IMG/VR virus record: IMGVR_UViG_3300045974_000166
Coordinates: 32,001-96,000 of that record
Strand: one strand, 5' to 3'
Length of the DNA stretch: 64,000 nt
DNA from: a virus
The notes beneath the pieces were generated by a model. That model saw only the letters and a program-made list of their open reading frames with translations. It made no database searches and was not told the origin of the DNA. The translations under genes and the position numbers were made by a program. Shown in pieces: positions 42,156 through 54,245 of the stretch; the stretch's first letter is position 1; the number at the start of each line of letters is the position of its first letter.

Positions 42156-45100
42156 ATGCCTACAAATTTATCCGCAGCACCTTACTACGATGACTACAAT
42201 CCAGCATCTGACTACCATCAGATTCTGTTTAAACCTGGTGTGTCTGTTCAGGCTCGTGAACTTACTCAAATGCAAAGCATTACAAGAAATCAGATTGCAG
42301 CATTTGGTGGTCACGTTTTTAAACATGGTTCAGTTGTCGTACCAGGTAATGTCACAACAGATTTTGAAGTCTCATATGTAAAGTTAACTATTGTAAACTT
42401 TGACGTTACTAGATTAGTAGGTAGTAAGCTTACTGGCCAAACTTCTGGTCTTACTGCATATGTTAAATTTGCTGTGAATGCGGTAGCGACCGATCCTGCA
42501 ACTATTTTTGTGACATACTATAATGTTGGTACCAATGGTGAACGTGTATTCACAGAAGGTGAAACTATCACAGACAATGTTAACAATTTTGTTGTATGGA
42601 CAAAACTTGTGTCAGACACTACGGAGTCTAGAGGACAATCTGTTCTTGCTTCTGTTAATAAAGGAACATTCTTCGTTAATGGTACTTTTGCTAATGTATC
42701 ACCACAGACGGTAGTATACTCAAAATATTCTGGTATTCCATCTGGTTCTGCATTGTTGAAGATTACTGAATCCATTGTTGATTCGAATACTGACCCAACA
42801 TTACTAGATCCAGCACAAGGTTCTTATAACTATGCTGCACCCGGCGCAGATCGTCTTAAAATTACCCTTACATTAGTAACACTTCCACTTGGTGCTACTT
42901 TTGGCGAAGATTATATTGAACTTATGCGGTATGACAATGGAGAACTTTTAGAACTTCTTCGGTATTCTAAGTACTCAGAACTAGAAAAGAATCTTGCACG
43001 TAGAACATATGAGCAATCTGGTGACTATATTACATCTGGCCTAGATATATCGGTGCGTGAACACCTTAAGAAAACTGTTAATGGTGGCAAATATGATGCA
43101 CCTACAGGTGATGCATCAAAATTCATTGTAGATGTTTCTGCTGGTAAAGCATATGTTAACGGATATGAGTGCGAAGTATTTTCTAAACGTGAAGTCGTGG
43201 TTGATAAGGCACGTTCTGCCGATCATATCAAAACATCTACCGCTAATTTAGTACCATCATTTGGCCAATATGTCCTGATTACGGATTTAGCTGGACTTCC
43301 AGTTTTCTCTACTCAAGAAACTATTACGTTCTATGATAATACTACTGCTGGTACCGTGATCGGTACGGCTTCTGCTCTAGCCGTAGATTATAATCAGACT
43401 GCCGGTGCAAATGAAACTTCTTCTATCTATACACTATTCATTTCAAATGTAGTATTGCAACCAGCTAAGTCTTTAGTTGATGTTGCTCGATGCACCTATA
43501 CTGCTGGTTCTTCAAAGGTTGTGCAAAAGATTAATATTGCTTCATCATCAGCAGTTGATTTTGTATTGGGTGAACTTGTCTCTGCTGGTGCTACTGGCCG
43601 ATCTGCAACCGTTCGTAAATACAACCGATACACTGGTGAACTGTTTGTGATCAAGAATGGTGCAAATACTGTACCAATTATCAATGATTTTCTTACTGCA
43701 GTATCTACTTCTTCTGGTAAAATTTTGTCTATTGATGCTATATTTAAGAATTCAACTGACAATCTTATCATTCAACTTCCAAAGAAATCTGTTAATGCAG
43801 TTAAGAATAGTGCAAATGCAGTTGATACTACATATAAACTTTACTATAATACCACCGTAACATGTGTCGCTGGCAATGCATCATTCTCTGTGACTGGTAT
43901 GACTATTGATCCAAAAGAACAAGGCAACTTCATGGTCGTTGGTGCTACACAGGTTTATCCGATCTCTGTTGCAACAGTAACAACCGACGGTTTAACCGTT
44001 AACATTACTGGTATTACTCCTACAACAGCAGTTCTGCAAATTACATGTGCCGCTACGAAAACTCTTACTGGTTCTACTCCAAAGACAAAATCTAAGAGCA
44101 CTTCTACCGCCGAAGTATTTACTCTAACTTCTGGGTTTGGCCAACTAAAATATGCCGATGGTATTAGATTAATTTCTGTTATTTCATCCGTTGACGGTAA
44201 TGTCACTTCTCGGTTTATGTTCGACAACGGCCAGCGCGACTATGTATATGGTCGTTCAGCCGTAGTATTAATTTCTGGAACTGCTCCTACAGGAACTCTA
44301 ACAGCAACATATGATTACTTTGCTCATAATGCTGGTTCTGGTGATCACTTCACTGTTGACTCATATGTCTCATCTGGCCTCGTAGATTATTTTGAATCAT
44401 CACTTTTATACTACACTAGCAAATCTGGTGGAACTAAATATGATCTAAGAAACTGCTTAGACTTTCGTCCACGTGAAGGTGTGGCCGGAGGTATTACTGG
44501 TGTGTCTTCTCTTACAAATTATCTACCACAGGTTGACTCTAGAATTACTACATCTGTACAAAGTTATGTAGGTCGCTATGATGTTGTTGTAATTGATAAA
44601 GCTTCAAAAATTAGTACTCTTACTGGTGTACCTTCGGAAACACCTTATGTGCCAAAGATCAATTCTGAGATCATTTCTCTTGGAACTATCTACGTACCAC
44701 CATATACTTACTCTGTCAACGATATGAGATTGTCAAAGTCTAATAATTCTACTTATAGAATGAAAGACATCTTTGGTATCGAAAACCGAATTGCTAATCT
44801 TGAAGATTATGTGACGATTAATGCAACAGAAGCATCAATCATCAATTATGATGTTATCGATGCACAAACTGGTTTATCTAGATATAAGTCTGGTTATTTA
44901 GTTGACACTTTTGACAATCCAGACATCATTTCAGATATTTTGGGTAGTCAGTTTACTATCACTTATTTTTCTGGCAATATTATTCCACAATTTGAAGTAT
45001 ACGAAACTCCGCTTGTGACTTCTTCTGCTGGTACTTTGTCTATTACAAATAATGTAGTGATGCTACCCTTTACAGAGATTGTCTTTGCCAAACAACCAAT

Positions 45101-46037
45101 GTCATCTAAGATTACTAACATCAATCCGTTTTCTGTATTTTCGTGGCACGGTATTATGAGTATCCAACCAAAATCTGATTCGTGGGAAGAAATTCAAAAT
45201 TTACCTACGGTGTTGAATACTCACAACCAAGTGTTAAACAATACGGTTGTTAACATTACTACAGAAACTATAAATGTTAGTCGGCCATGGGATTGGGTGC
45301 CACCTTCTGGTGCTTTAGTTTCTTATGCTGCTGCACCAACACCTGTTGTTGCTCCACCGGCTTCTGGCGGGGGTGGGGGTGGATGTTTTACTGGTGAAAC
45401 ATTAGTTACTATGGCAAATGGTAAAAAGAAAGCAATCTCGGAAATCGTTGTGGGTGATCTTGTTAAGGGCACAACTAAGGATGCATTCAATGAAGTTCTA
45501 TATGTGGAATCTCTTGAGAACAACATGTGGAATCTTTACTCTCCAAACGAGACATTCATTCCATTTGCTACTATCAACCATCCATTCTACATCAATGGCG
45601 TTCTAACTCTACCAAAAGAATTGATGGGCAAGATTAACTATTCTTGGCTTGGCAATATCCAGTATGAAGCATTTGGCAATGTACAAGAACTTAATAAGTC
45701 TAGATGCCGTGTATACAATCTTTGGTTAGATGGTGACGGCACTTACCTTGTAAATGGACTTCCAACAACTTCGATTTTGTTAGACACAAAATTCCTAAGA
45801 AACATAATTAAATATGAGCATGTAACTCATGATCAATGTATGGAAATTATTAATGCCGTTCAATCGGATATTAATTTGCTAAATGGATCTTATGCAGTTT
45901 CTAGAATTTTAGGAAAACTAAATTTAAGATTCATAGATCGTACAGTTGCATGCACATTCAATGACGGAAAAATATCTAAGAAAATATTGTTTGGTTTCTT
46001 AAAAATCGTCGGTTCTCTAGTTATAAAGAAAAAATAA
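42156..46037 (+). CDS. VrlC/DUF4815-like large tail protein, N-terminal part, with C-terminal Hint domain
   Basis: PYYDDY, ILFKPG..VQARELTQ, APGADRLK, LARRTYEQSGDY, AGKAYVNGYE, LDFRP, RIANLEDY and GYLVDTF. Confidence 0.8.
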   Translation: MPTNLSAAPYYDDYNPASDYHQILFKPGVSVQARELTQMQSITRNQIAAFGGHVFKHGSVVVPGNVTTDFEVSYVKLTIVNFDVTRLVGSKLTGQTSGLTAYVKFAVNAVATDPATIFVTYYNVGTNGERVFTEGETITDNVNNFVVWTKLVSDTTESRGQSVLASVNKGTFFVNGTFANVSPQTVVYSKYSGIPSGSALLKITESIVDSNTDPTLLDPAQGSYNYAAPGADRLKITLTLVTLPLGATFGEDYIELMRYDNGELLELLRYSKYSELEKNLARRTYEQSGDYITSGLDISVREHLKKTVNGGKYDAPTGDASKFIVDVSAGKAYVNGYECEVFSKREVVVDKARSADHIKTSTANLVPSFGQYVLITDLAGLPVFSTQETITFYDNTTAGTVIGTASALAVDYNQTAGANETSSIYTLFISNVVLQPAKSLVDVARCTYTAGSSKVVQKINIASSSAVDFVLGELVSAGATGRSATVRKYNRYTGELFVIKNGANTVPIINDFLTAVSTSSGKILSIDAIFKNSTDNLIIQLPKKSVNAVKNSANAVDTTYKLYYNTTVTCVAGNASFSVTGMTIDPKEQGNFMVVGATQVYPISVATVTTDGLTVNITGITPTTAVLQITCAATKTLTGSTPKTKSKSTSTAEVFTLTSGFGQLKYADGIRLISVISSVDGNVTSRFMFDNGQRDYVYGRSAVVLISGTAPTGTLTATYDYFAHNAGSGDHFTVDSYVSSGLVDYFESSLLYYTSKSGGTKYDLRNCLDFRPREGVAGGITGVSSLTNYLPQVDSRITTSVQSYVGRYDVVVIDKASKISTLTGVPSETPYVPKINSEIISLGTIYVPPYTYSVNDMRLSKSNNSTYRMKDIFGIENRIANLEDYVTINATEASIINYDVIDAQTGLSRYKSGYLVDTFDNPDIISDILGSQFTITYFSGNIIPQFEVYETPLVTSSAGTLSITNNVVMLPFTEIVFAKQPMSSKITNINPFSVFSWHGIMSIQPKSDSWEEIQNLPTVLNTHNQVLNNTVVNITTETINVSRPWDWVPPSGALVSYAAAPTPVVAPPASGGGGGGCFTGETLVTMANGKKKAISEIVVGDLVKGTTKDAFNEVLYVESLENNMWNLYSPNETFIPFATINHPFYINGVLTLPKELMGKINYSWLGNIQYEAFGNVQELNKSRCRVYNLWLDGDGTYLVNGLPTTSILLDTKFLRNIIKYEHVTHDQCMEIINAVQSDINLLNGSYAVSRILGKLNLRFIDRTVACTFNDGKISKKILFGFLKIVGSLVIKKK
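45384..45773 (+). other. Hint (hedgehog/intein-like) autoprocessing domain
   Basis: Block A CFTGETLVTMANG, block B TINH and block F VYNLWLDGDGTYLVNG; no terminal His-Asn. Confidence 0.85.
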
Positions 46038-48308
46038 ATGGCTACATCATTACTAAGCACTTATGGCACTACTCAATCTATTAGTAGAACTGATCTAGTT
46101 GGTCTAACATCTGTTTCTTTCATCAGACCACAAAGAATTAGTTTCTCTGTTTCTGGTACAAAACCAAATACAAGACTTTATGCATTTTTTGATGGTCAGG
46201 TAGTCTCACAATATGTAGCACAGACAGGCAAAAACAAGGGTGACCCAATCATTGCTGATAGCGCTGGCAGTGTCACTGGTTACTTTGATGTCCCACCTGT
46301 CACTTTTAACACTGGTGTTCGGACATTTTTGCTTCAAGATGATCCAGTATATTCTACTACGGTTATACCTGGAAATTCTGTGGGTACTGCCCAGGCTAAT
46401 TTTTCGGCCGCTGGTATTCTTAAGACATTCCAACAAACAACAGATGTTACAAATACTACGTTTAATACATTTAAACAAGATATTACTAAAACTGTAACAA
46501 ACAACATCATTGCAGCCAAACCTGTTCCTCCGCCAGCTCCCGCACCAGTTGTATCTACATGGTCCGGCGGAAATGACGGTGGAGGAGGTGGGGGAGATCC
46601 TCTCGCCCAGACATTTTTTACATATGGTGTAAAGGGTGGTTGTTTTATTACTGCTATTTCTGTGTTCTTTCAAAGTAAAGATGCATCTTTACCTATTACG
46701 TTACAGATTAGAAATACTAACAATGGTTATCCAACGGATTCTTTAATTTCGGAGTATGCTTCTAAAACATTGTCACCAGTTTCAATATTCACTTCTAACG
46801 ATTCAAGCCTAGAGACTAAGTTCGCATTTGATAGACCAATTTATCTTCAGGAAAATCAAGAATTCTGTTTTGTTTTGATGGCAAATTCTAACGGCTACAA
46901 TGTTTGGACTTCAGAATTTAGTAAAGTGTCAGTAGAAACAGGCAAGACAATTTTTGAACAGCCTTATGTTGGTACAATGTTCAAATCAGAAAATAATTCT
47001 ACTTGGACTGCTGAACAAGCTGAAGATATTAAGTTTACAATCTATCGTGCATCTTTTAATACTGCACCACGTGAATACACATTTAAAGCTAATGCACCTA
47101 CTATACTAGTGCCTGGTTATAATTTCTCTACTACATCTGGTGTCAGCCCAATAATCACTGCATCTTTTGACACACAGCACGGTCATAAAACTGGTGACAA
47201 AATTGTTCTTGCAACTCTTACGGGTGCAACATATAGAGGTATGACTGCTGCTACACTTGGTGTAAATACTGGTTTTTCTGTGACAGTTATAGATGATTAT
47301 TCTCTCACTTTTACAGCAACTGGTTGTACATCAACATCTGCCGGTCTTTTGTCGGCATCAGGAATTCTAAATCAGATTTCTGTAATTGCCCCCGGTACAG
47401 GTTATACAGCTTCTCCTTCAATTGTAGTTTCTGGTGGTGGAGCTTCTGTACAAGCTACTGCTCATGCAGTTGTAGTTTCTGGTAAGGTAGCTTCTGTTAT
47501 CATTGATACGGTTGGTACAGGATATACTTCTAAACCATCTGTTGCTATTACGGATGGTTCTGGGTCTGGTTGTATACTTGATGCAGTGTCAGAAGCAATT
47601 TTTGTAGTTTCTCTGAACAAACAATATCAAAATTTGCTGCCTGTTGTCGATACATTTATTCCACAATCTACAACAGTTGATTGCACTATAAAAACTATGA
47701 CGTCAGATTACATTCAGGGCATACATGAATTGTCGTCTCTTACCGTTCCTCGTCAATTGGTTAAGAATGCAGTTTTACTTAATTCTGGAACTGAAACTGT
47801 TGTTTCGTCTGGTGTGAATTCTACCGAAATTAAAATGACATTTTCTACGGATAATGCTAATGTTTCTCCAATGTTAGATTTAGCTAATAAACCTAGACTT
47901 CGGGTACATAATTTTATTGTAAATAACTCTTCAAATGCAGCATCAGAAACCTCTGCCACAACAGGTACAGCCCAGTCTAAATACATCTCTAAAATTGTAA
48001 AGATCGACACACCTTCTAAAGGTGCCAAGATATTTGTATCTGGTGCTTCAATTAAACAGACATCGTTTGATGTCTTTATTCGTACTTCGATAGGTAGTGA
48101 TAACCATACTCTGCTTGCTTGGACTCCAATGAACTGTGACATTCTTCGTAATGTTTCAAGTACATGGGATGAATACAGAGACTATGAATTTTACATCGAA
48201 AATCTTGCTATATTTGATACGTACGATATTAAGATAGTTTTGTACTCAGATGTTAAATACTTATTCCCAAAGATAGATAATTACCGTGTGATTATCCTAG
48301 CATCATAA
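46038..48308 (+). CDS. VrlC/DUF4815-like tail protein, C-terminal part
   Basis: RPQRISF.VSGTKPNTRLYAFFDG, DPLAQTF, QPYVGTMFKSEN.STW and Q.EDIKFTIYRA.F. Confidence 0.75.
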   Translation: MATSLLSTYGTTQSISRTDLVGLTSVSFIRPQRISFSVSGTKPNTRLYAFFDGQVVSQYVAQTGKNKGDPIIADSAGSVTGYFDVPPVTFNTGVRTFLLQDDPVYSTTVIPGNSVGTAQANFSAAGILKTFQQTTDVTNTTFNTFKQDITKTVTNNIIAAKPVPPPAPAPVVSTWSGGNDGGGGGGDPLAQTFFTYGVKGGCFITAISVFFQSKDASLPITLQIRNTNNGYPTDSLISEYASKTLSPVSIFTSNDSSLETKFAFDRPIYLQENQEFCFVLMANSNGYNVWTSEFSKVSVETGKTIFEQPYVGTMFKSENNSTWTAEQAEDIKFTIYRASFNTAPREYTFKANAPTILVPGYNFSTTSGVSPIITASFDTQHGHKTGDKIVLATLTGATYRGMTAATLGVNTGFSVTVIDDYSLTFTATGCTSTSAGLLSASGILNQISVIAPGTGYTASPSIVVSGGGASVQATAHAVVVSGKVASVIIDTVGTGYTSKPSVAITDGSGSGCILDAVSEAIFVVSLNKQYQNLLPVVDTFIPQSTTVDCTIKTMTSDYIQGIHELSSLTVPRQLVKNAVLLNSGTETVVSSGVNSTEIKMTFSTDNANVSPMLDLANKPRLRVHNFIVNNSSNAASETSATTGTAQSKYISKIVKIDTPSKGAKIFVSGASIKQTSFDVFIRTSIGSDNHTLLAWTPMNCDILRNVSSTWDEYRDYEFYIENLAIFDTYDIKIVLYSDVKYLFPKIDNYRVIILAS

Positions 48309-48318
48309 AGATAGAACC

Positions 48319-49797
48319 ATGGCCGCAAACATAATTTATAGAGCTTCAGTAACTCCGGTCGTAGCCTCTGCTACTATTGCAAAAAATTCTGCCCTTTCTA
48401 ATGCAGAAATGGATGGAAACTTAAAAGCAATTGCTAACGAATTGGAAATAAAAGCAAATCTAAATGCACCCACATTTACGGGCACAGTTGTTCTACCAGC
48501 AACTACTTCAATTGGCACCGTATCTTCTGTAGAGTTAGGGTTTTTGGATGGAGTAACTTCTAGTATTCAGACGCAATTGTCATCTAAAGCTTCAATAGCA
48601 AGTCCTACTTTTTCTGGTATTCCAACTGCACCTACTGCCGCACCTGGTACTAGTACCACACAAGTTGCAACAACGGAATTTGTTGCAACTTCTTTTACGG
48701 CAAAAGCACCAGTCGCTTCTCCTGCATTTACAGGTACTGCTACTGCACCTCAATTTATTTCTACTGCTGCCATTGGTACTCCTCCGTTTGCGGTAACTTC
48801 TACTACTGTCGTCACAAATCTAAATGCGGATTTCCTTGACGGTCAATCAGGAGATACTGCTGCAACACCAAGCACAATCGTAATCAGAGATGTTTCTGGT
48901 GGAGCTGCTCTTACAAATCTGAATACTACACTAGCTGATGTTAATACAATTTCCGGAGCTCTTGTATTTAGAAATGCAGGTTCTCTGGGTTACTGTTCAT
49001 CTACAACTGCTATTAAGACTTATCTTGGTGTTCCAACTGGTTCTGGTACTTCTACTGGTAGTAATACTGGTGATCAAACTTCTGTTACAGGTAATGCCGG
49101 CACAGTAACTAACGGTGTCTATACGATTGGAGACCAAACGATAGGTGGTAATAAGACATTCTCTCTTCCAATCGTTGGAACACTATCTGGTACTGCTACT
49201 TACGTTTCTACTACACAACAGACAAATATGATTACTGGTTCTAACACTCCAGTAAACATTGCTCTAGCTAATTCAACTAATAACGGTTCATTCGTCTGCC
49301 GAGCAGCTGGTGCATCTGACGGTAATTCTAATTTAGCAGGTCTAACATTTTGGCATGATTCTTATGCAATCAAGATGGGTGTTCGTGCCGATGGTATGTT
49401 TGGTATTGGTGGTTGGTCTAGAGGCGCATGGTCGTGGTATTCTGATTCTGCTGGCAACTGTGTGGCCTCAGGTAATGTGTCTGGTTATTCAGACCCGAGG
49501 CTTAAAGACAATGTACAACTTATAGCTGATCCATTTGCTCTTATAGATGCTATCAACGGAGTAACATTCACCTGGAATGAACATTCTAAACTCATACAAC
49601 CTAAATGGGGAAAACATGATTATGGTGTCCTATCATCAGAAGTAAAATCTGTGATGCCAGAAATCATTACTCAGTCAATTTCTGATGAAGAAACAGGTGA
49701 GATTTATGATACAGTCGACTACACCAAATTGGTACCAGTTCTTCTAGAAGCAATAAAACTATTGAAAAGAGAAGTTGATCTCTTAAAAGCAAAATGA
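48319..49797 (+). CDS. tail fibre 1 with C-terminal intramolecular chaperone (S74)
   Basis: SPTFSGIPTAPT repeats; SDPRLK...YGVLSSEV...VDYTKLVPVLLEAIK. Confidence 0.85.
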   Translation: MAANIIYRASVTPVVASATIAKNSALSNAEMDGNLKAIANELEIKANLNAPTFTGTVVLPATTSIGTVSSVELGFLDGVTSSIQTQLSSKASIASPTFSGIPTAPTAAPGTSTTQVATTEFVATSFTAKAPVASPAFTGTATAPQFISTAAIGTPPFAVTSTTVVTNLNADFLDGQSGDTAATPSTIVIRDVSGGAALTNLNTTLADVNTISGALVFRNAGSLGYCSSTTAIKTYLGVPTGSGTSTGSNTGDQTSVTGNAGTVTNGVYTIGDQTIGGNKTFSLPIVGTLSGTATYVSTTQQTNMITGSNTPVNIALANSTNNGSFVCRAAGASDGNSNLAGLTFWHDSYAIKMGVRADGMFGIGGWSRGAWSWYSDSAGNCVASGNVSGYSDPRLKDNVQLIADPFALIDAINGVTFTWNEHSKLIQPKWGKHDYGVLSSEVKSVMPEIITQSISDEETGEIYDTVDYTKLVPVLLEAIKLLKREVDLLKAK

Positions 49798-51322: not shown

Positions 51323-51538
51323 ATGAAGCAAATTGTTGATGCTTCTGGTACTCCAATTAAGGGTCTTTTTAAGAATGCAGATGGATCGGTAATCGTAAAG
51401 AATGATGTCGAACTTAAAAAGAATCTAAAACAGCATGAGACGTTCGACCGATTAAATAATCAAATAAATGATCTGACGATTAGAGTATCGGAGATAGAAA
51501 ATCTTCTTAGAAAAATGAGAATAAACAATGACAGCTAA
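51323..51538 (+). CDS. small coiled-coil virion-associated protein
   Basis: MKQIVD...GSVIVKN with a C-terminal coiled coil. Confidence 0.6.
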   Translation: MKQIVDASGTPIKGLFKNADGSVIVKNDVELKKNLKQHETFDRLNNQINDLTIRVSEIENLLRKMRINNDS

Positions 51539-54245
51539 CATTACATATAGACTTACTACTGCTGGCACCCCACCAGTTTCAACTACATTTAAAAATTTAC
51601 CTCTATCTAATGCAGAAATTGATGGTAACTTAAAGTCTATTATCACCGATGTAGATCTAAAAGCTCCGATTGATTCTCCTACATTCACCACAACAGCGGC
51701 CGCACCAACACCAGCACTAGCCGACAATACTACAAAAATTGCTACCACAGCATTCGTACAAGCAAATACTGTACCGCTACGCGCAGCTTCAACAGCAGGC
51801 ACATTTGATCAGTCTGCCACAACACCCACAAGTGTTACTCGTCTAAATTATTCTGGTGTATTTTGGCCAACAGCTATTAATTTGACAGGTACTGCAGATA
51901 CAACAGTTGCTGCCACAAATTATTTTGTAGAGACTGCTACCGATGGGGTTATACGTCCAAAACTTCTAGCAGATGTTAAAACAGAACTTGTTACAACCGC
52001 CGCAGTTAATTCTGCACTAGCTACATCAGTTGGTACAGTATTGACAGGCAATTGGCAAGCGACAGCTGTCGGAGTAACTTATGGTGGTACTGGTTTATCT
52101 TCATATGCCGTAGGTGATATTCCTTATGCTTCTGCTTCTAATGTAATTTCTAAATTGGCCGATGTTGCCGCCGGTTCTGTAATTATTTCAGGTGGTGTCG
52201 GCATTGCTCCATCATACGGTAAAGTAGGTCTTACGACTCATGTATCTGGAACATTGCCAATTGCTAGTGGTGGTACTGGCCAGACTACTGCTCAGTTAGC
52301 TATTAATGCTCTTACCGGTACAACTACCGGTACGTATCTTCGTGGCGACGGTGTAAATGCATCAATGTCGCCAATCCAGATACTCGATGTTCCAACTCTG
52401 AACCAATCAACTACTGGCACTGCTACAAATGCAGTTAATCTAAATGGCACTGGTACAGCACAAACAGCTGCTACTGCCGGTTCTGGTTATGGATTGTGGG
52501 CATCTGCTCCAATCACCTATGGCACTATGATGTCTGCTTCGACAGATATAACTTATGGTGGTAGAAATGGTACAGAAAGTACATCTGACTACAATATGTA
52601 CTTTACCATGGCCGGTGGTATAAATCGTGGATTCTTATTTAGATCAGCATACGGCGCAAATTTACTTTCGGTCAATCCAGATGGTATTAGAACCGGCATT
52701 GCTATTAATGGTACAGATTTAATTCTCTCTGGTAATTTAACTGTTAATGGTACTACGACAACTATTAATTCTACAACAATTTCCGTAGATGATATCAACA
52801 TAGAAATCGGTTCTGTTGCGGTACCAACCGATGTTACGGCAAATGGCGGCGGCATTACTCTTAGAGGAACTACAAATAAAACTCTTACTTGGGATTCTAC
52901 TAATACGAATTGGACTTCTTCTGAACATTGGAATATTCCAACTGGTAAGTCTTATAAAATCAACAACATTGCTTTGCTTACCGCTACTACGGTGCTTGGT
53001 AAAACTGTCGGTGATTCTACTGCTGGTGCCATCGTCACTATTGATGGAATACAGACGCTAGCAAACAAAACATTTACTGCACCTGCGCTTGGTACTCCTG
53101 CTTCTGGTGTCTTGACTAATTGTACTGGTACAGCTGCTGGCCTAACTTCTGGATCTGTTACTAATGCTACCTTGTCTACGGCTCTGACAGTCAACACAGG
53201 TTCACTTACTTTAGCTGGTAATATAGCAAATACATCGGTACTTACTGTTGGTGCGGGCGCATCCTCTGTCTCTGGCTCAAACACAGGTGATCAGACTGGT
53301 GGCACCCCTGCGCTAGTTTTTGGCACCACAAATACAGCTGGCGCTTCTACTAATTTCCTACGTAGAGATGATACTGTAGCAATATTTGATGGTACTGTGG
53401 GTGTTGTACCTACAACTGTTGCAACATCTGGTTTATCTACTGCTGGCACCGCCGCATTCGCTGCTCGACAAGATCATACTCACAACATTCCTATTTTAAG
53501 TGGCACAGTTTCTGGTATTGTAGCTACACAAGGTACTAGTGCTACTAATCTTTGGCTTAACGGTAATGGTGCTTGGTCGGCACCCACTTATGCTCAGATT
53601 GGGGCCTTGGGTGCTTCTGGTTCTGTGTATCTGGGCACAACCCCAGTTTTATATAATAGAGGTCCTGGTGCACTTTCATTGGCTGGTGTAAGTATTGATG
53701 GATCGGCTGGTACAGCAGGTTCAGCAAGCTCGGCCGATGCTTTAAATACTGCTAATTCTTATCAAGGTGTAAATTTTACTTCTACTGGTAGATTCTTAGC
53801 GGCCAGCGGTTCAGCAGCTGTGCCATCTATTGCTTGGTCAGCTGATGGTGGAACTGATACTGGATTTTATTGGGGCGGTGATGGCTATACATTCTTTACT
53901 AATAATAGTGTTTATAGCGGACAGATCGGCCCAGGCGGCAATCTTATTATGGTTGGCAATGTCACTGCTTATTCAGATATCCGAATCAAGACTAACATCA
54001 CAAAGATTACTGGCGCACTAGATAAAGTAGATCAACTAAATGGTTATACATTTGATCGTACCGATGTAAATTTACCTAGACAGACCGGTGTGATTGCTCA
54101 GGAAGTTCTTAAGGTACTTCCGGAAGCAGTCATGGGCACTGAAGAAACTAAATACTCTGTTGCTTACGGTAACATGGTTGGTCTATTGATTGAAGCAATT
54201 AAGGAACTTCGAGCAGAAGTTGCAGAACTTAAGGGATTGAAATAA
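51528..54245 (+). CDS. tail fibre 2 with C-terminal intramolecular chaperone (S74)
   Basis: N-terminus paralogous to fibre 1 (LSNAEIDGNLK); SDIRIK...GVIAQEV...VAYGNMVGLLIEAIKEL. Confidence 0.85.
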   Translation: MTANITYRLTTAGTPPVSTTFKNLPLSNAEIDGNLKSIITDVDLKAPIDSPTFTTTAAAPTPALADNTTKIATTAFVQANTVPLRAASTAGTFDQSATTPTSVTRLNYSGVFWPTAINLTGTADTTVAATNYFVETATDGVIRPKLLADVKTELVTTAAVNSALATSVGTVLTGNWQATAVGVTYGGTGLSSYAVGDIPYASASNVISKLADVAAGSVIISGGVGIAPSYGKVGLTTHVSGTLPIASGGTGQTTAQLAINALTGTTTGTYLRGDGVNASMSPIQILDVPTLNQSTTGTATNAVNLNGTGTAQTAATAGSGYGLWASAPITYGTMMSASTDITYGGRNGTESTSDYNMYFTMAGGINRGFLFRSAYGANLLSVNPDGIRTGIAINGTDLILSGNLTVNGTTTTINSTTISVDDINIEIGSVAVPTDVTANGGGITLRGTTNKTLTWDSTNTNWTSSEHWNIPTGKSYKINNIALLTATTVLGKTVGDSTAGAIVTIDGIQTLANKTFTAPALGTPASGVLTNCTGTAAGLTSGSVTNATLSTALTVNTGSLTLAGNIANTSVLTVGAGASSVSGSNTGDQTGGTPALVFGTTNTAGASTNFLRRDDTVAIFDGTVGVVPTTVATSGLSTAGTAAFAARQDHTHNIPILSGTVSGIVATQGTSATNLWLNGNGAWSAPTYAQIGALGASGSVYLGTTPVLYNRGPGALSLAGVSIDGSAGTAGSASSADALNTANSYQGVNFTSTGRFLAASGSAAVPSIAWSADGGTDTGFYWGGDGYTFFTNNSVYSGQIGPGGNLIMVGNVTAYSDIRIKTNITKITGALDKVDQLNGYTFDRTDVNLPRQTGVIAQEVLKVLPEAVMGTEETKYSVAYGNMVGLLIEAIKELRAEVAELKGLK

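What the first reader, a model, noticed from the sequence alone, without database searches (positions are those of the whole stretch)
45290..46620. Split VrlC/DUF4815 tail gene with a non-splicing Hint domain behind a Gly6 linker
Seen: the 1293-aa protein ends in a Pro-rich linker, GGGGGG, then C1077-FTGETLV with block B TINH and block F VYNL..G..TY.VNG. It has PTTS where inteins have the terminal His-Asn, followed by about 85 helical residues. The next gene starts at the base after the stop and continues with motifs (RPQRISF, KPNTRLYAFFDG, DPLAQTF) that I recall as the C-terminal half of single-chain VrlC-like proteins. It has its own Pro/Gly6 linker (about 46520-46600). Established: Hint domains lacking the terminal Asn (Hedgehog, BIL-type) form a thioester at Gly-Cys and cleave or transfer the N-fragment to a nucleophile. 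Inference: a phage-encoded autoprocessing or ligation system. It could re-ligate the two halves in trans, attach a small molecule or protein to a poly-Gly C-terminus chosen by the helical tail, or release a folding chaperone during baseplate assembly.
Basis: partly seen in the sequence, partly recalled or inferred. Interest (0 to 1): 0.85.

Follow-up and report, generated by a model that had tools for sequence, protein, structure and literature searches.

The report
Self-cutting cap on phage baseplate protein
A phage baseplate protein made in two pieces carries, at the end of its first piece, a Hedgehog-like self-cutting domain with a helical tail; this cap is a widespread, apparently undescribed add-on of many phage particle proteins and is not what joins the two pieces, because most close relatives are split the same way without it.

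Summary
Observation confirmed. ORF 42156-46037 (VrlC/DUF4815, homologue of the phage 812 tripod protein) ends in Gly6, a genuine Hint fold (C1077-S1206) and an 87-residue five-helix tail; the next gene is the missing C-half. The re-ligation idea fails: of 73 close relatives all are split here, 50 end bare, 12 end in a different Hint-free helical cap (KIICT type), 11 carry Hint+tail, and an 84%-identical sister lost the cassette yet keeps the split. The cassette is a mobile C-terminal family (133 clusters at E<1e-10), almost only viral, on more than 20 cargo groups (VrlC cut at several points, gp5 hub, other virion proteins); poly-Gly is not required. It keeps Cys1, TxxH, a near-invariant Glu42 and Ser130 at the place of Hedgehog Cys143, but no Asn or +1 nucleophile: it cannot splice, but probably cuts itself off at Gly1076/Cys1077. 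Best reading: a self-removing accessory cap; Hedgehog-like transfer of an adduct to the cargo is the main rival. No paper describing it was found. The scan met this family before on other DNA.

The parts
42156..45215 (+). VrlC/DUF4815 N-half (cargo): T4-like baseplate protein, homologue of the N-terminal about 630 residues of the phage 812 tripod protein
   Evidence: PF16075 E=4e-54; phrog_358 5-1132; close relative P0195 matches 9EUF to residue 627
45216..45383 (+). Variable Thr/Val/Pro-rich linker ending in Gly6 (45366-45383); the place where relatives stop, or carry a Hint or KIICT cap
   Evidence: sequence; C-termini of 73 relatives
45384..45773 (+). Hint domain, C1077-S1206. Catalytic candidates: C1077 (45384), E1118 (45507), T1139 (45570), H1142 (45579), N1188 (45717), D1194 (45735), S1206 (45771)
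   Evidence: conservation in 120 members; model and fold search
45774..46037 (+). 87-residue five-helix tail, basic and amphipathic in its last half, not a clear transmembrane segment; modelled confidently only together with the Hint
46038..48308 (+). VrlC C-half gene (756 aa), starting the base after the stop; own Pro/Gly6 linker 46521-46595 without any cap
   Evidence: phrog_358 1315-1590; 9EUF 682-761 and 792-948

Best explanation
The gene split and the Hint are two independent things. This T4-like phage clade makes its tripod-type baseplate protein as two chains that reassemble without a covalent link (inferred: 62 of 73 relatives have no Hint). The free C-terminus made by the split is a landing site for interchangeable accessory caps. 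The ester is then resolved, most simply by water, releasing Hint+tail as one 24-kDa unit and leaving the N-half ending in Gly. The basic amphipathic tail is the working part before release, most likely a transient membrane or assembly tag (inferred), and is optional for the virion. My odds: cleavage at Gly1076/Cys1077 about 0.8; independence from the split about 0.95; hydrolytic release of a transient cap, as against adduct transfer or a pure passenger, about 0.45.
For: C1 120/120, F2 120/120, T63 116, H66 120, D118 120, E42 114, S/T/C at 130 118 of 120; +1 residue always I/L/V/M. Hint fold 1-130 plus five helices, pLDDT 93.6; 1at0 258-402 aligns with model 1-132, putting S130 on C400/C143; role of C143 from PMC12054796. 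Cassette is terminal in all 120 full members (197-254 aa to the stop) on 23 cargo clusters among 177 cargoes. Patchy and mobile: 7 changes of the Hint label on the cargo tree, at least 5 forced by well-supported branches; cassettes of the 11 close VrlC proteins do not form one group. P0180, 84% identical, has no cassette and keeps the C-half gene 28 bp downstream. A Hint-free helical cap of similar length, charge and amphipathicity occupies the same site in 12 relatives and the same cap type follows a Hint directly in P0163/P0165 (27.8 bits, 0 of 500 shuffles). dN is 0.25-0.41 against dS of 1.5 or more (saturated in one case) in Hint and tail.
Against: No biochemical or proteomic data; no cultured phage carries the cassette. 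Membrane binding rests only on charge and hydrophobic moment (median net +7 in the last 45 residues; best 19-residue hydropathy 1.3). Simple hydrolysis does not explain why Glu42 and Ser130 are near-invariant. Block F position 4 is Asn, not the usual Asp, so activity could be slow or triggered. Only 3 of the 50 bare relatives were checked in their DNA context.
Confidence: 0.45

Rival explanations
1. Hedgehog-like transferase: the tail is an adduct-recognition region that presents a host lipid, small molecule or protein amine to the (thio)ester, so the virion protein leaves with a C-terminal modification (for example a lipid anchor on tripod, hub or ejection proteins).
For: Same layout as Hog (cargo, G-C junction, Hint, helical tail). 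Counterparts for C1, T69, H72 and C143 are present; an acidic residue (E42, 114/120) lies on the strand that carries Hedgehog D46, which is needed for cholesterol transfer but not for thiol cleavage (PMC9163320). By a rough motif count Glu is at that place in 164 of 200 terminal cassettes against 3 of 44 HN-K Hints of the same phages. The tail models well only with the Hint (pLDDT about 90 against 64 alone), as expected for one two-part enzyme.
Against: E42 = D46 was not verified by residue-level superposition and may be one residue off. The tail shows no sequence or fold match to the Hedgehog SRR or anything else (inconclusive). A needed modification would not be expected to be absent from 62 of 73 relatives. 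No conserved partner gene follows the cassette.
Confidence: 0.3
2. Near-neutral passenger: a self-removing element that spreads by recombination into low-complexity C-terminal linkers of virion genes and is kept active only because an uncut cap would harm the particle; the tail merely stabilises the Hint.
For: Repeated gain and loss; clean loss in a sister phage; the same linker collects tandem arrays of up to six HN-K Hint domains in other phages; the cassette changes faster than its cargo (55-72% against 78-85% identity).
Against: No homing endonuclease or other drive seen; the cargoes that could be named are virion proteins; Hint-free KIICT caps at the same site are not explained by self-removal.
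Confidence: 0.2
3. Trans-ligase that rejoins the two VrlC halves.
For: The cassette sits at the break and the next gene starts at once; BIL-type Hints can ligate through amines (BIL2 isopeptide, PMC8616854).
Against: 62 of 73 relatives are split here with no Hint; C-halves of Hint-free phages are 47-77% identical and start alike; 28 different C-half starts have no Cys and no conserved nucleophile at residue 2; the cassette also ends gp5 hub and other proteins.
Confidence: 0.04

Closest known systems
Hedgehog C-terminal autoprocessing (Hog) domain: Hint plus sterol/adduct recognition region (PDB 1at0; PMC9163320, PMC12054796, PMC2362128)
   Same: Cargo-Gly|Cys-Hint-helical tail layout; Hint fold (Z 11.5, rmsd 2.5, 112 residues); C1, TxxH, a nucleophile at the C143 position, an acidic residue near the D46 position; no terminal Asn.
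   Different: Ser instead of Cys at 143; tail of five helices with no detected likeness to the SRR; phage virion cargoes, not secreted eukaryotic signals; 18% identity; adduct unknown.
Bacterial intein-like domains and Tetrahymena BIL2 (PDB 6TMM/6Y75, 2LWY)
   Same: Best sequence and structure matches (E=1.7e-5; Z 14.4 and 12.5); no +1 nucleophile; no endonuclease.
   Different: These end in His-Asn and can cut at the C-terminal side or ligate a following domain; this family has T/H-Ser followed by a fixed tail.
Vint domain (PF14623, PDB 8R2C)
   Same: Non-splicing C-terminal Hint; weak Pfam match in 43 of 78 members; Z 11.3 over 1-170; nearest named ESM Atlas clusters.
   Different: Below Pfam cut-off for this protein; no VWA/Vwaint domains; longer all-helical tail.
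Peptidase S74 intramolecular chaperone of phage fibres (PF13884)
   Same: Works alike in outline (own knowledge): C-terminal module of a trimeric virion protein that removes itself. Two fibres in this operon carry it.
Single-chain VrlC/DUF4815 = tripod protein gp119 of Staphylococcus phage 812 (PDB 9EUF/9TIC; PMC13433997)
   Same: Both genes match it in order; trimeric baseplate component with putative receptor-binding domains.
   Different: Here two chains, longer, with an optional C-terminal cap on the first.

Membership tests
Hint superfamily | Hint beta-fold with N-terminal Cys and block B TxxH | tested here: met
   model; Z 8-14 to 27 Hint structures; residues
Class 1 intein | Terminal (His)-Asn/Gln | tested here: not met
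   T1205-S1206; Asn in 2 of 120 members
Class 1 intein | Cys/Ser/Thr at +1 and a C-extein belonging to the host protein | tested here: not met
   +1 is I/L/V/M in 120 of 120; what follows is the cassette's own tail
Split intein | Hint fold divided over two genes, second gene starting with the C-intein | tested here: not met
   whole fold lies in one chain; P0002 has no Hint match
BIL type A / BIL2 | His-Asn end without +1 nucleophile | tested here: not met
   Ser at the Asn position; such HN-K domains do occur upstream of the cassette in relatives
BIL type B (Pfam Hint_2, assignment from memory) | Match to the family profile | tested here: inconclusive
   no match for this protein; 7 of 78 members match weakly
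Hog (Hedgehog Hint+SRR/ARR) | C1, T69, H72 and a nucleophile at position 143 | tested here: met
   C1, T63, H66; S130 at C400 by the ends of the structural alignment; Ser, not Cys
Hog (Hedgehog Hint+SRR/ARR) | General base D46 | tested here: inconclusive
   E42 in 114 of 120, same region; no residue-level alignment to 1at0 obtained
Hog (Hedgehog Hint+SRR/ARR) | Tail homologous to the SRR/ARR; match to PF01079 above cut-off | tested here: inconclusive
   PF01079 match only over the first 40 residues, 22 bits against cut-off 29.7; tail has no family or fold match
Hog (Hedgehog Hint+SRR/ARR) | Covalent transfer of a sterol or other adduct | not testable with these tools
   needs biochemistry
Vint | VWA and Vwaint domains in front of the Hint | tested here: not met
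   cargo is DUF4815; no VWA among family matches of 78 members
VrlC/DUF4815 tripod protein | PF16075/phrog_358 match and place in a T4-like baseplate operon | tested here: met
Peptidase S74 chaperone | PF13884 match | tested here: not met
   no match in P0001, strong matches in two neighbouring fibres

The most novel reading that the evidence does not exclude
Phages carry a mobile Hedgehog-like ligase cassette that covalently attaches a host lipid or other small molecule to the C-terminus of virion proteins (tripod, hub spike, ejection proteins) through a Cys1 to Ser130 relay, with the helical tail choosing the adduct: a prokaryotic-virus counterpart, and possible relative, of Hedgehog cholesterolysis.
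Probability: 0.25. Interest if true: 0.9.

Novelty: new variant of a known kind. Interest (0 to 1): 0.55.

Why it matters
Hint-driven maturation of phage particle proteins did not turn up in the searchable literature, yet this cassette is common in uncultured phages. If it only removes itself, it adds a second self-cleaving route, beside S74 chaperones, for finishing virion proteins and exposes a family of interchangeable helical end-caps of unknown role. If it transfers an adduct, it would be the first Hog-type modifying enzyme outside eukaryotes, would make the long-open question of what non-Hedgehog 'adduct recognition regions' attach testable in E. coli, and would offer a compact C-terminal labelling tool that tolerates many residues at -1.

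Tried and rejected
Trans re-ligation of the halves: rejected by distribution. Poly-Gly as a recognition signal: rejected (Gly at -1 in 45 of 120; 26 of 120 have at most one Gly in the ten preceding residues). Canonical or split intein: rejected. Direct homology of this tail with the KIICT cap: profile-profile comparison not significant (hhalign probability 1.3%); only a weak excess in HMM scores (13 of 120 tails at 5 bits or more, against 0-4 in shuffles and 1 reversed), so it stays a lead. Likeness to CFI-box-CTERM (from memory): no NCBIfam match, no paper. Tail fold search: best Z 4.8, model only pLDDT 64, so no conclusion. Residue-level alignment to Hedgehog: three attempts failed. Cultured phages: no match. 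Complex prediction (trimer test) and the atlas fold library were not available. Literature searches found only ordinary inteins in phage enzymes; the library lacks most subscription journals.
Full report
Observation. The window is part of a complete 192-kb virus record and the stretch lies in a T4-like baseplate and tail operon: tube cap, gp5 hub, gp6-like and gp8-like wedge genes upstream, fibres, neck and sheath-stabiliser genes downstream. ORF 42156-46037 is a DUF4815/VrlC protein whose last 217 residues start with Cys1077 behind six glycines; the next gene starts at the base after the stop. The two genes cover successive parts of one PHROG profile and of the single-chain tripod protein of phage 812 (PDB 9EUF/9TIC), so this is a split gene. 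The cassette occurs once in the genome.

The Hint is real and non-splicing. A model from 50 family members has pLDDT 93.6: beta Hint fold over 1-130, then five helices. It matches BIL2 (Z 14.4), a Clostridium BIL (12.5), Hedgehog (11.5) and Vint (11.3). In 120 full-length members Cys1, Phe2, His66, Trp88 and Asp118 are invariant, Thr63 is kept in 116, Glu42 in 114. The position of the intein's terminal Asn holds Ser (108), Thr (8), Cys (2) or Asn (2), and +1 is always aliphatic. So N-terminal acyl shift is plausible and splicing is not. The structural alignment to 1at0 ends in register (model 132, chain 402), placing Ser130 on Hedgehog Cys143, shown to form a branched intermediate (PMC12054796). 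Glu42 lies near the place of Hedgehog Asp46, the base needed for cholesterol transfer only (PMC9163320), but I could not verify that register.

The cassette is a family of its own. One profile search found 133 clusters at 50% identity with E below 1e-10; it is nearly absent from prokaryotic genomes (3 MAG contigs) and from cultured phages. It is always C-terminal. Its cargoes fall into 23 clusters among 177 (the largest is inflated by VrlC and low-complexity links): VrlC pieces cut at several different points, including middle pieces of three-way splits, gp5-type hub proteins, and proteins matching virion structural PHROGs. The residue before Cys1 is Gly in only 45 of 120. On a cassette tree, cargo types are mixed, and the cassettes on the 11 close VrlC proteins do not group together (FastTree, quick method). 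Synonymous change far exceeds replacement change in both Hint and tail.

The split does not depend on the Hint. A search with residues 660-1076 returned 73 close relatives (about 40% identity or more); none contains the C-half. Fifty end in a bare linker, 11 in Hint+tail, 12 in another helical cap that begins Lys-Ile/Val-Ile-Cys after the same kind of Gly-rich linker. On the cargo tree the Hint label needs 7 changes and the KIICT label 9 (quick IQ-TREE tree, no bootstrap). P0180, 84% identical and nested among Hint-bearing sisters, stops after the Pro-rich linker, and its C-half gene, 77% identical to ours, follows 28 bp later. L011 and L116 (bare) and L114, L115, L117 (KIICT) show the same. 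The other bare proteins were not checked in DNA context. C-half N-termini share no nucleophile. Re-ligation is therefore not the cassette's job.

The tail. It is 87 residues, basic and amphipathic in its last half, seldom hydrophobic enough to span a membrane (11 of 120). Alone it models poorly (pLDDT 64) and matches no family or fold, which suggests it packs on the Hint. The KIICT cap has similar size, charge and moment, ends HMO-2011 gp49 next to the portal gene, and in P0163/P0165 directly follows a Hint (0 of 500 shuffles). Direct homology to the present tail is weak and unproven. In several relatives up to six HN-Lys Hint domains are stacked in front of the terminal cassette, so this linker collects Hint domains.

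Mechanism. Shown: fold, conserved residues, terminal position, mobility, independence from the split, dispensability. Inferred: cleavage at Gly1076/Cys1077 (about 0.8), possibly through Ser1206. Open: the resolving nucleophile. I favour release by water of a transient membrane or assembly cap (0.45), because most relatives do without it and a Hint-free cap can stand in the same place. Hedgehog-like adduct transfer (0.3) is favoured by Glu42, Ser130 and the fixed tail. A self-removing passenger (0.2) fits the patchiness but not the Hint-free caps. Rejoining of the halves: 0.04.

Comparison and novelty. It works like a Hog domain in layout and first steps, but membership is not shown; it is not an intein, split intein, BIL-A or Vint by their defining features. 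Five literature searches on this topic found no description of a terminal Hint+tail cassette on virion proteins; coverage is limited to open papers. Earlier unchecked notes of this scan reached the same reading on other genomes; I saw them after my own tests and do not count them as support. Verdict: new variant of a known kind, interest 0.55; 0.9 if adduct transfer is shown.

Noticed in passing
L089:153-5666, L039:3-5666, L071:1-2361, L097:348-5681, L040:3444-5648: Tandem arrays of one to six HN-Lys-ending Hint domains, often joined by a single Lys, stacked directly in front of the terminal cassette; 40 of 45 such Hints have Lys at +1.
   Followed up: partly
L114:5669-5977, L115:7520-7852, L117:7253-7747; L118:7001-7312 (HMO-2011 gp49): An unnamed Hint-free helical end-cap of about 105 residues (KIICT type, invariant Cys, GYH motif) at the same site in 12 relatives and in a cultured SAR116 phage; no Pfam, PHROG or NCBIfam match.
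   Followed up: partly
proteins P0163 (737-858) and P0165: Hint ending in His-Asn-Ile followed directly by a KIICT-type domain lacking its Cys: a possible bridge between the two cap types.
   Followed up: partly
protein P0177, last 80 residues: HN-Lys Hint followed by a third short helical cap starting with Cys-Trp-Val, recalling CFI-box-CTERM from memory; no NCBIfam match.
   Followed up: partly
L051:4332-5648, L069:4347-5639, L103:1767-3116; L003:6673-7044, L035, L080: VrlC split into three genes in some phages, with the cassette on the middle piece or on the first piece before a small middle gene.
   Followed up: no
L121:1-1026: Cassette behind a very long poly-Pro linker at the end of a 278-kb Burkholderiales MAG contig whose neighbours look plasmid- or conjugation-like, not phage-like (my reading of the ORFs): possibly a non-viral use.
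   Followed up: no
window 48319-49797 and 51528-54245: Two fibre genes share a similar N-terminal anchor segment and both end in a peptidase S74 chaperone, so this operon uses two kinds of self-removing C-terminal module.
   Followed up: no
L002:2732-6626 and L002:636-2722: VrlC N-half and the upstream wedge gene are each broken by a frameshift, probably sequencing errors.
   Followed up: no
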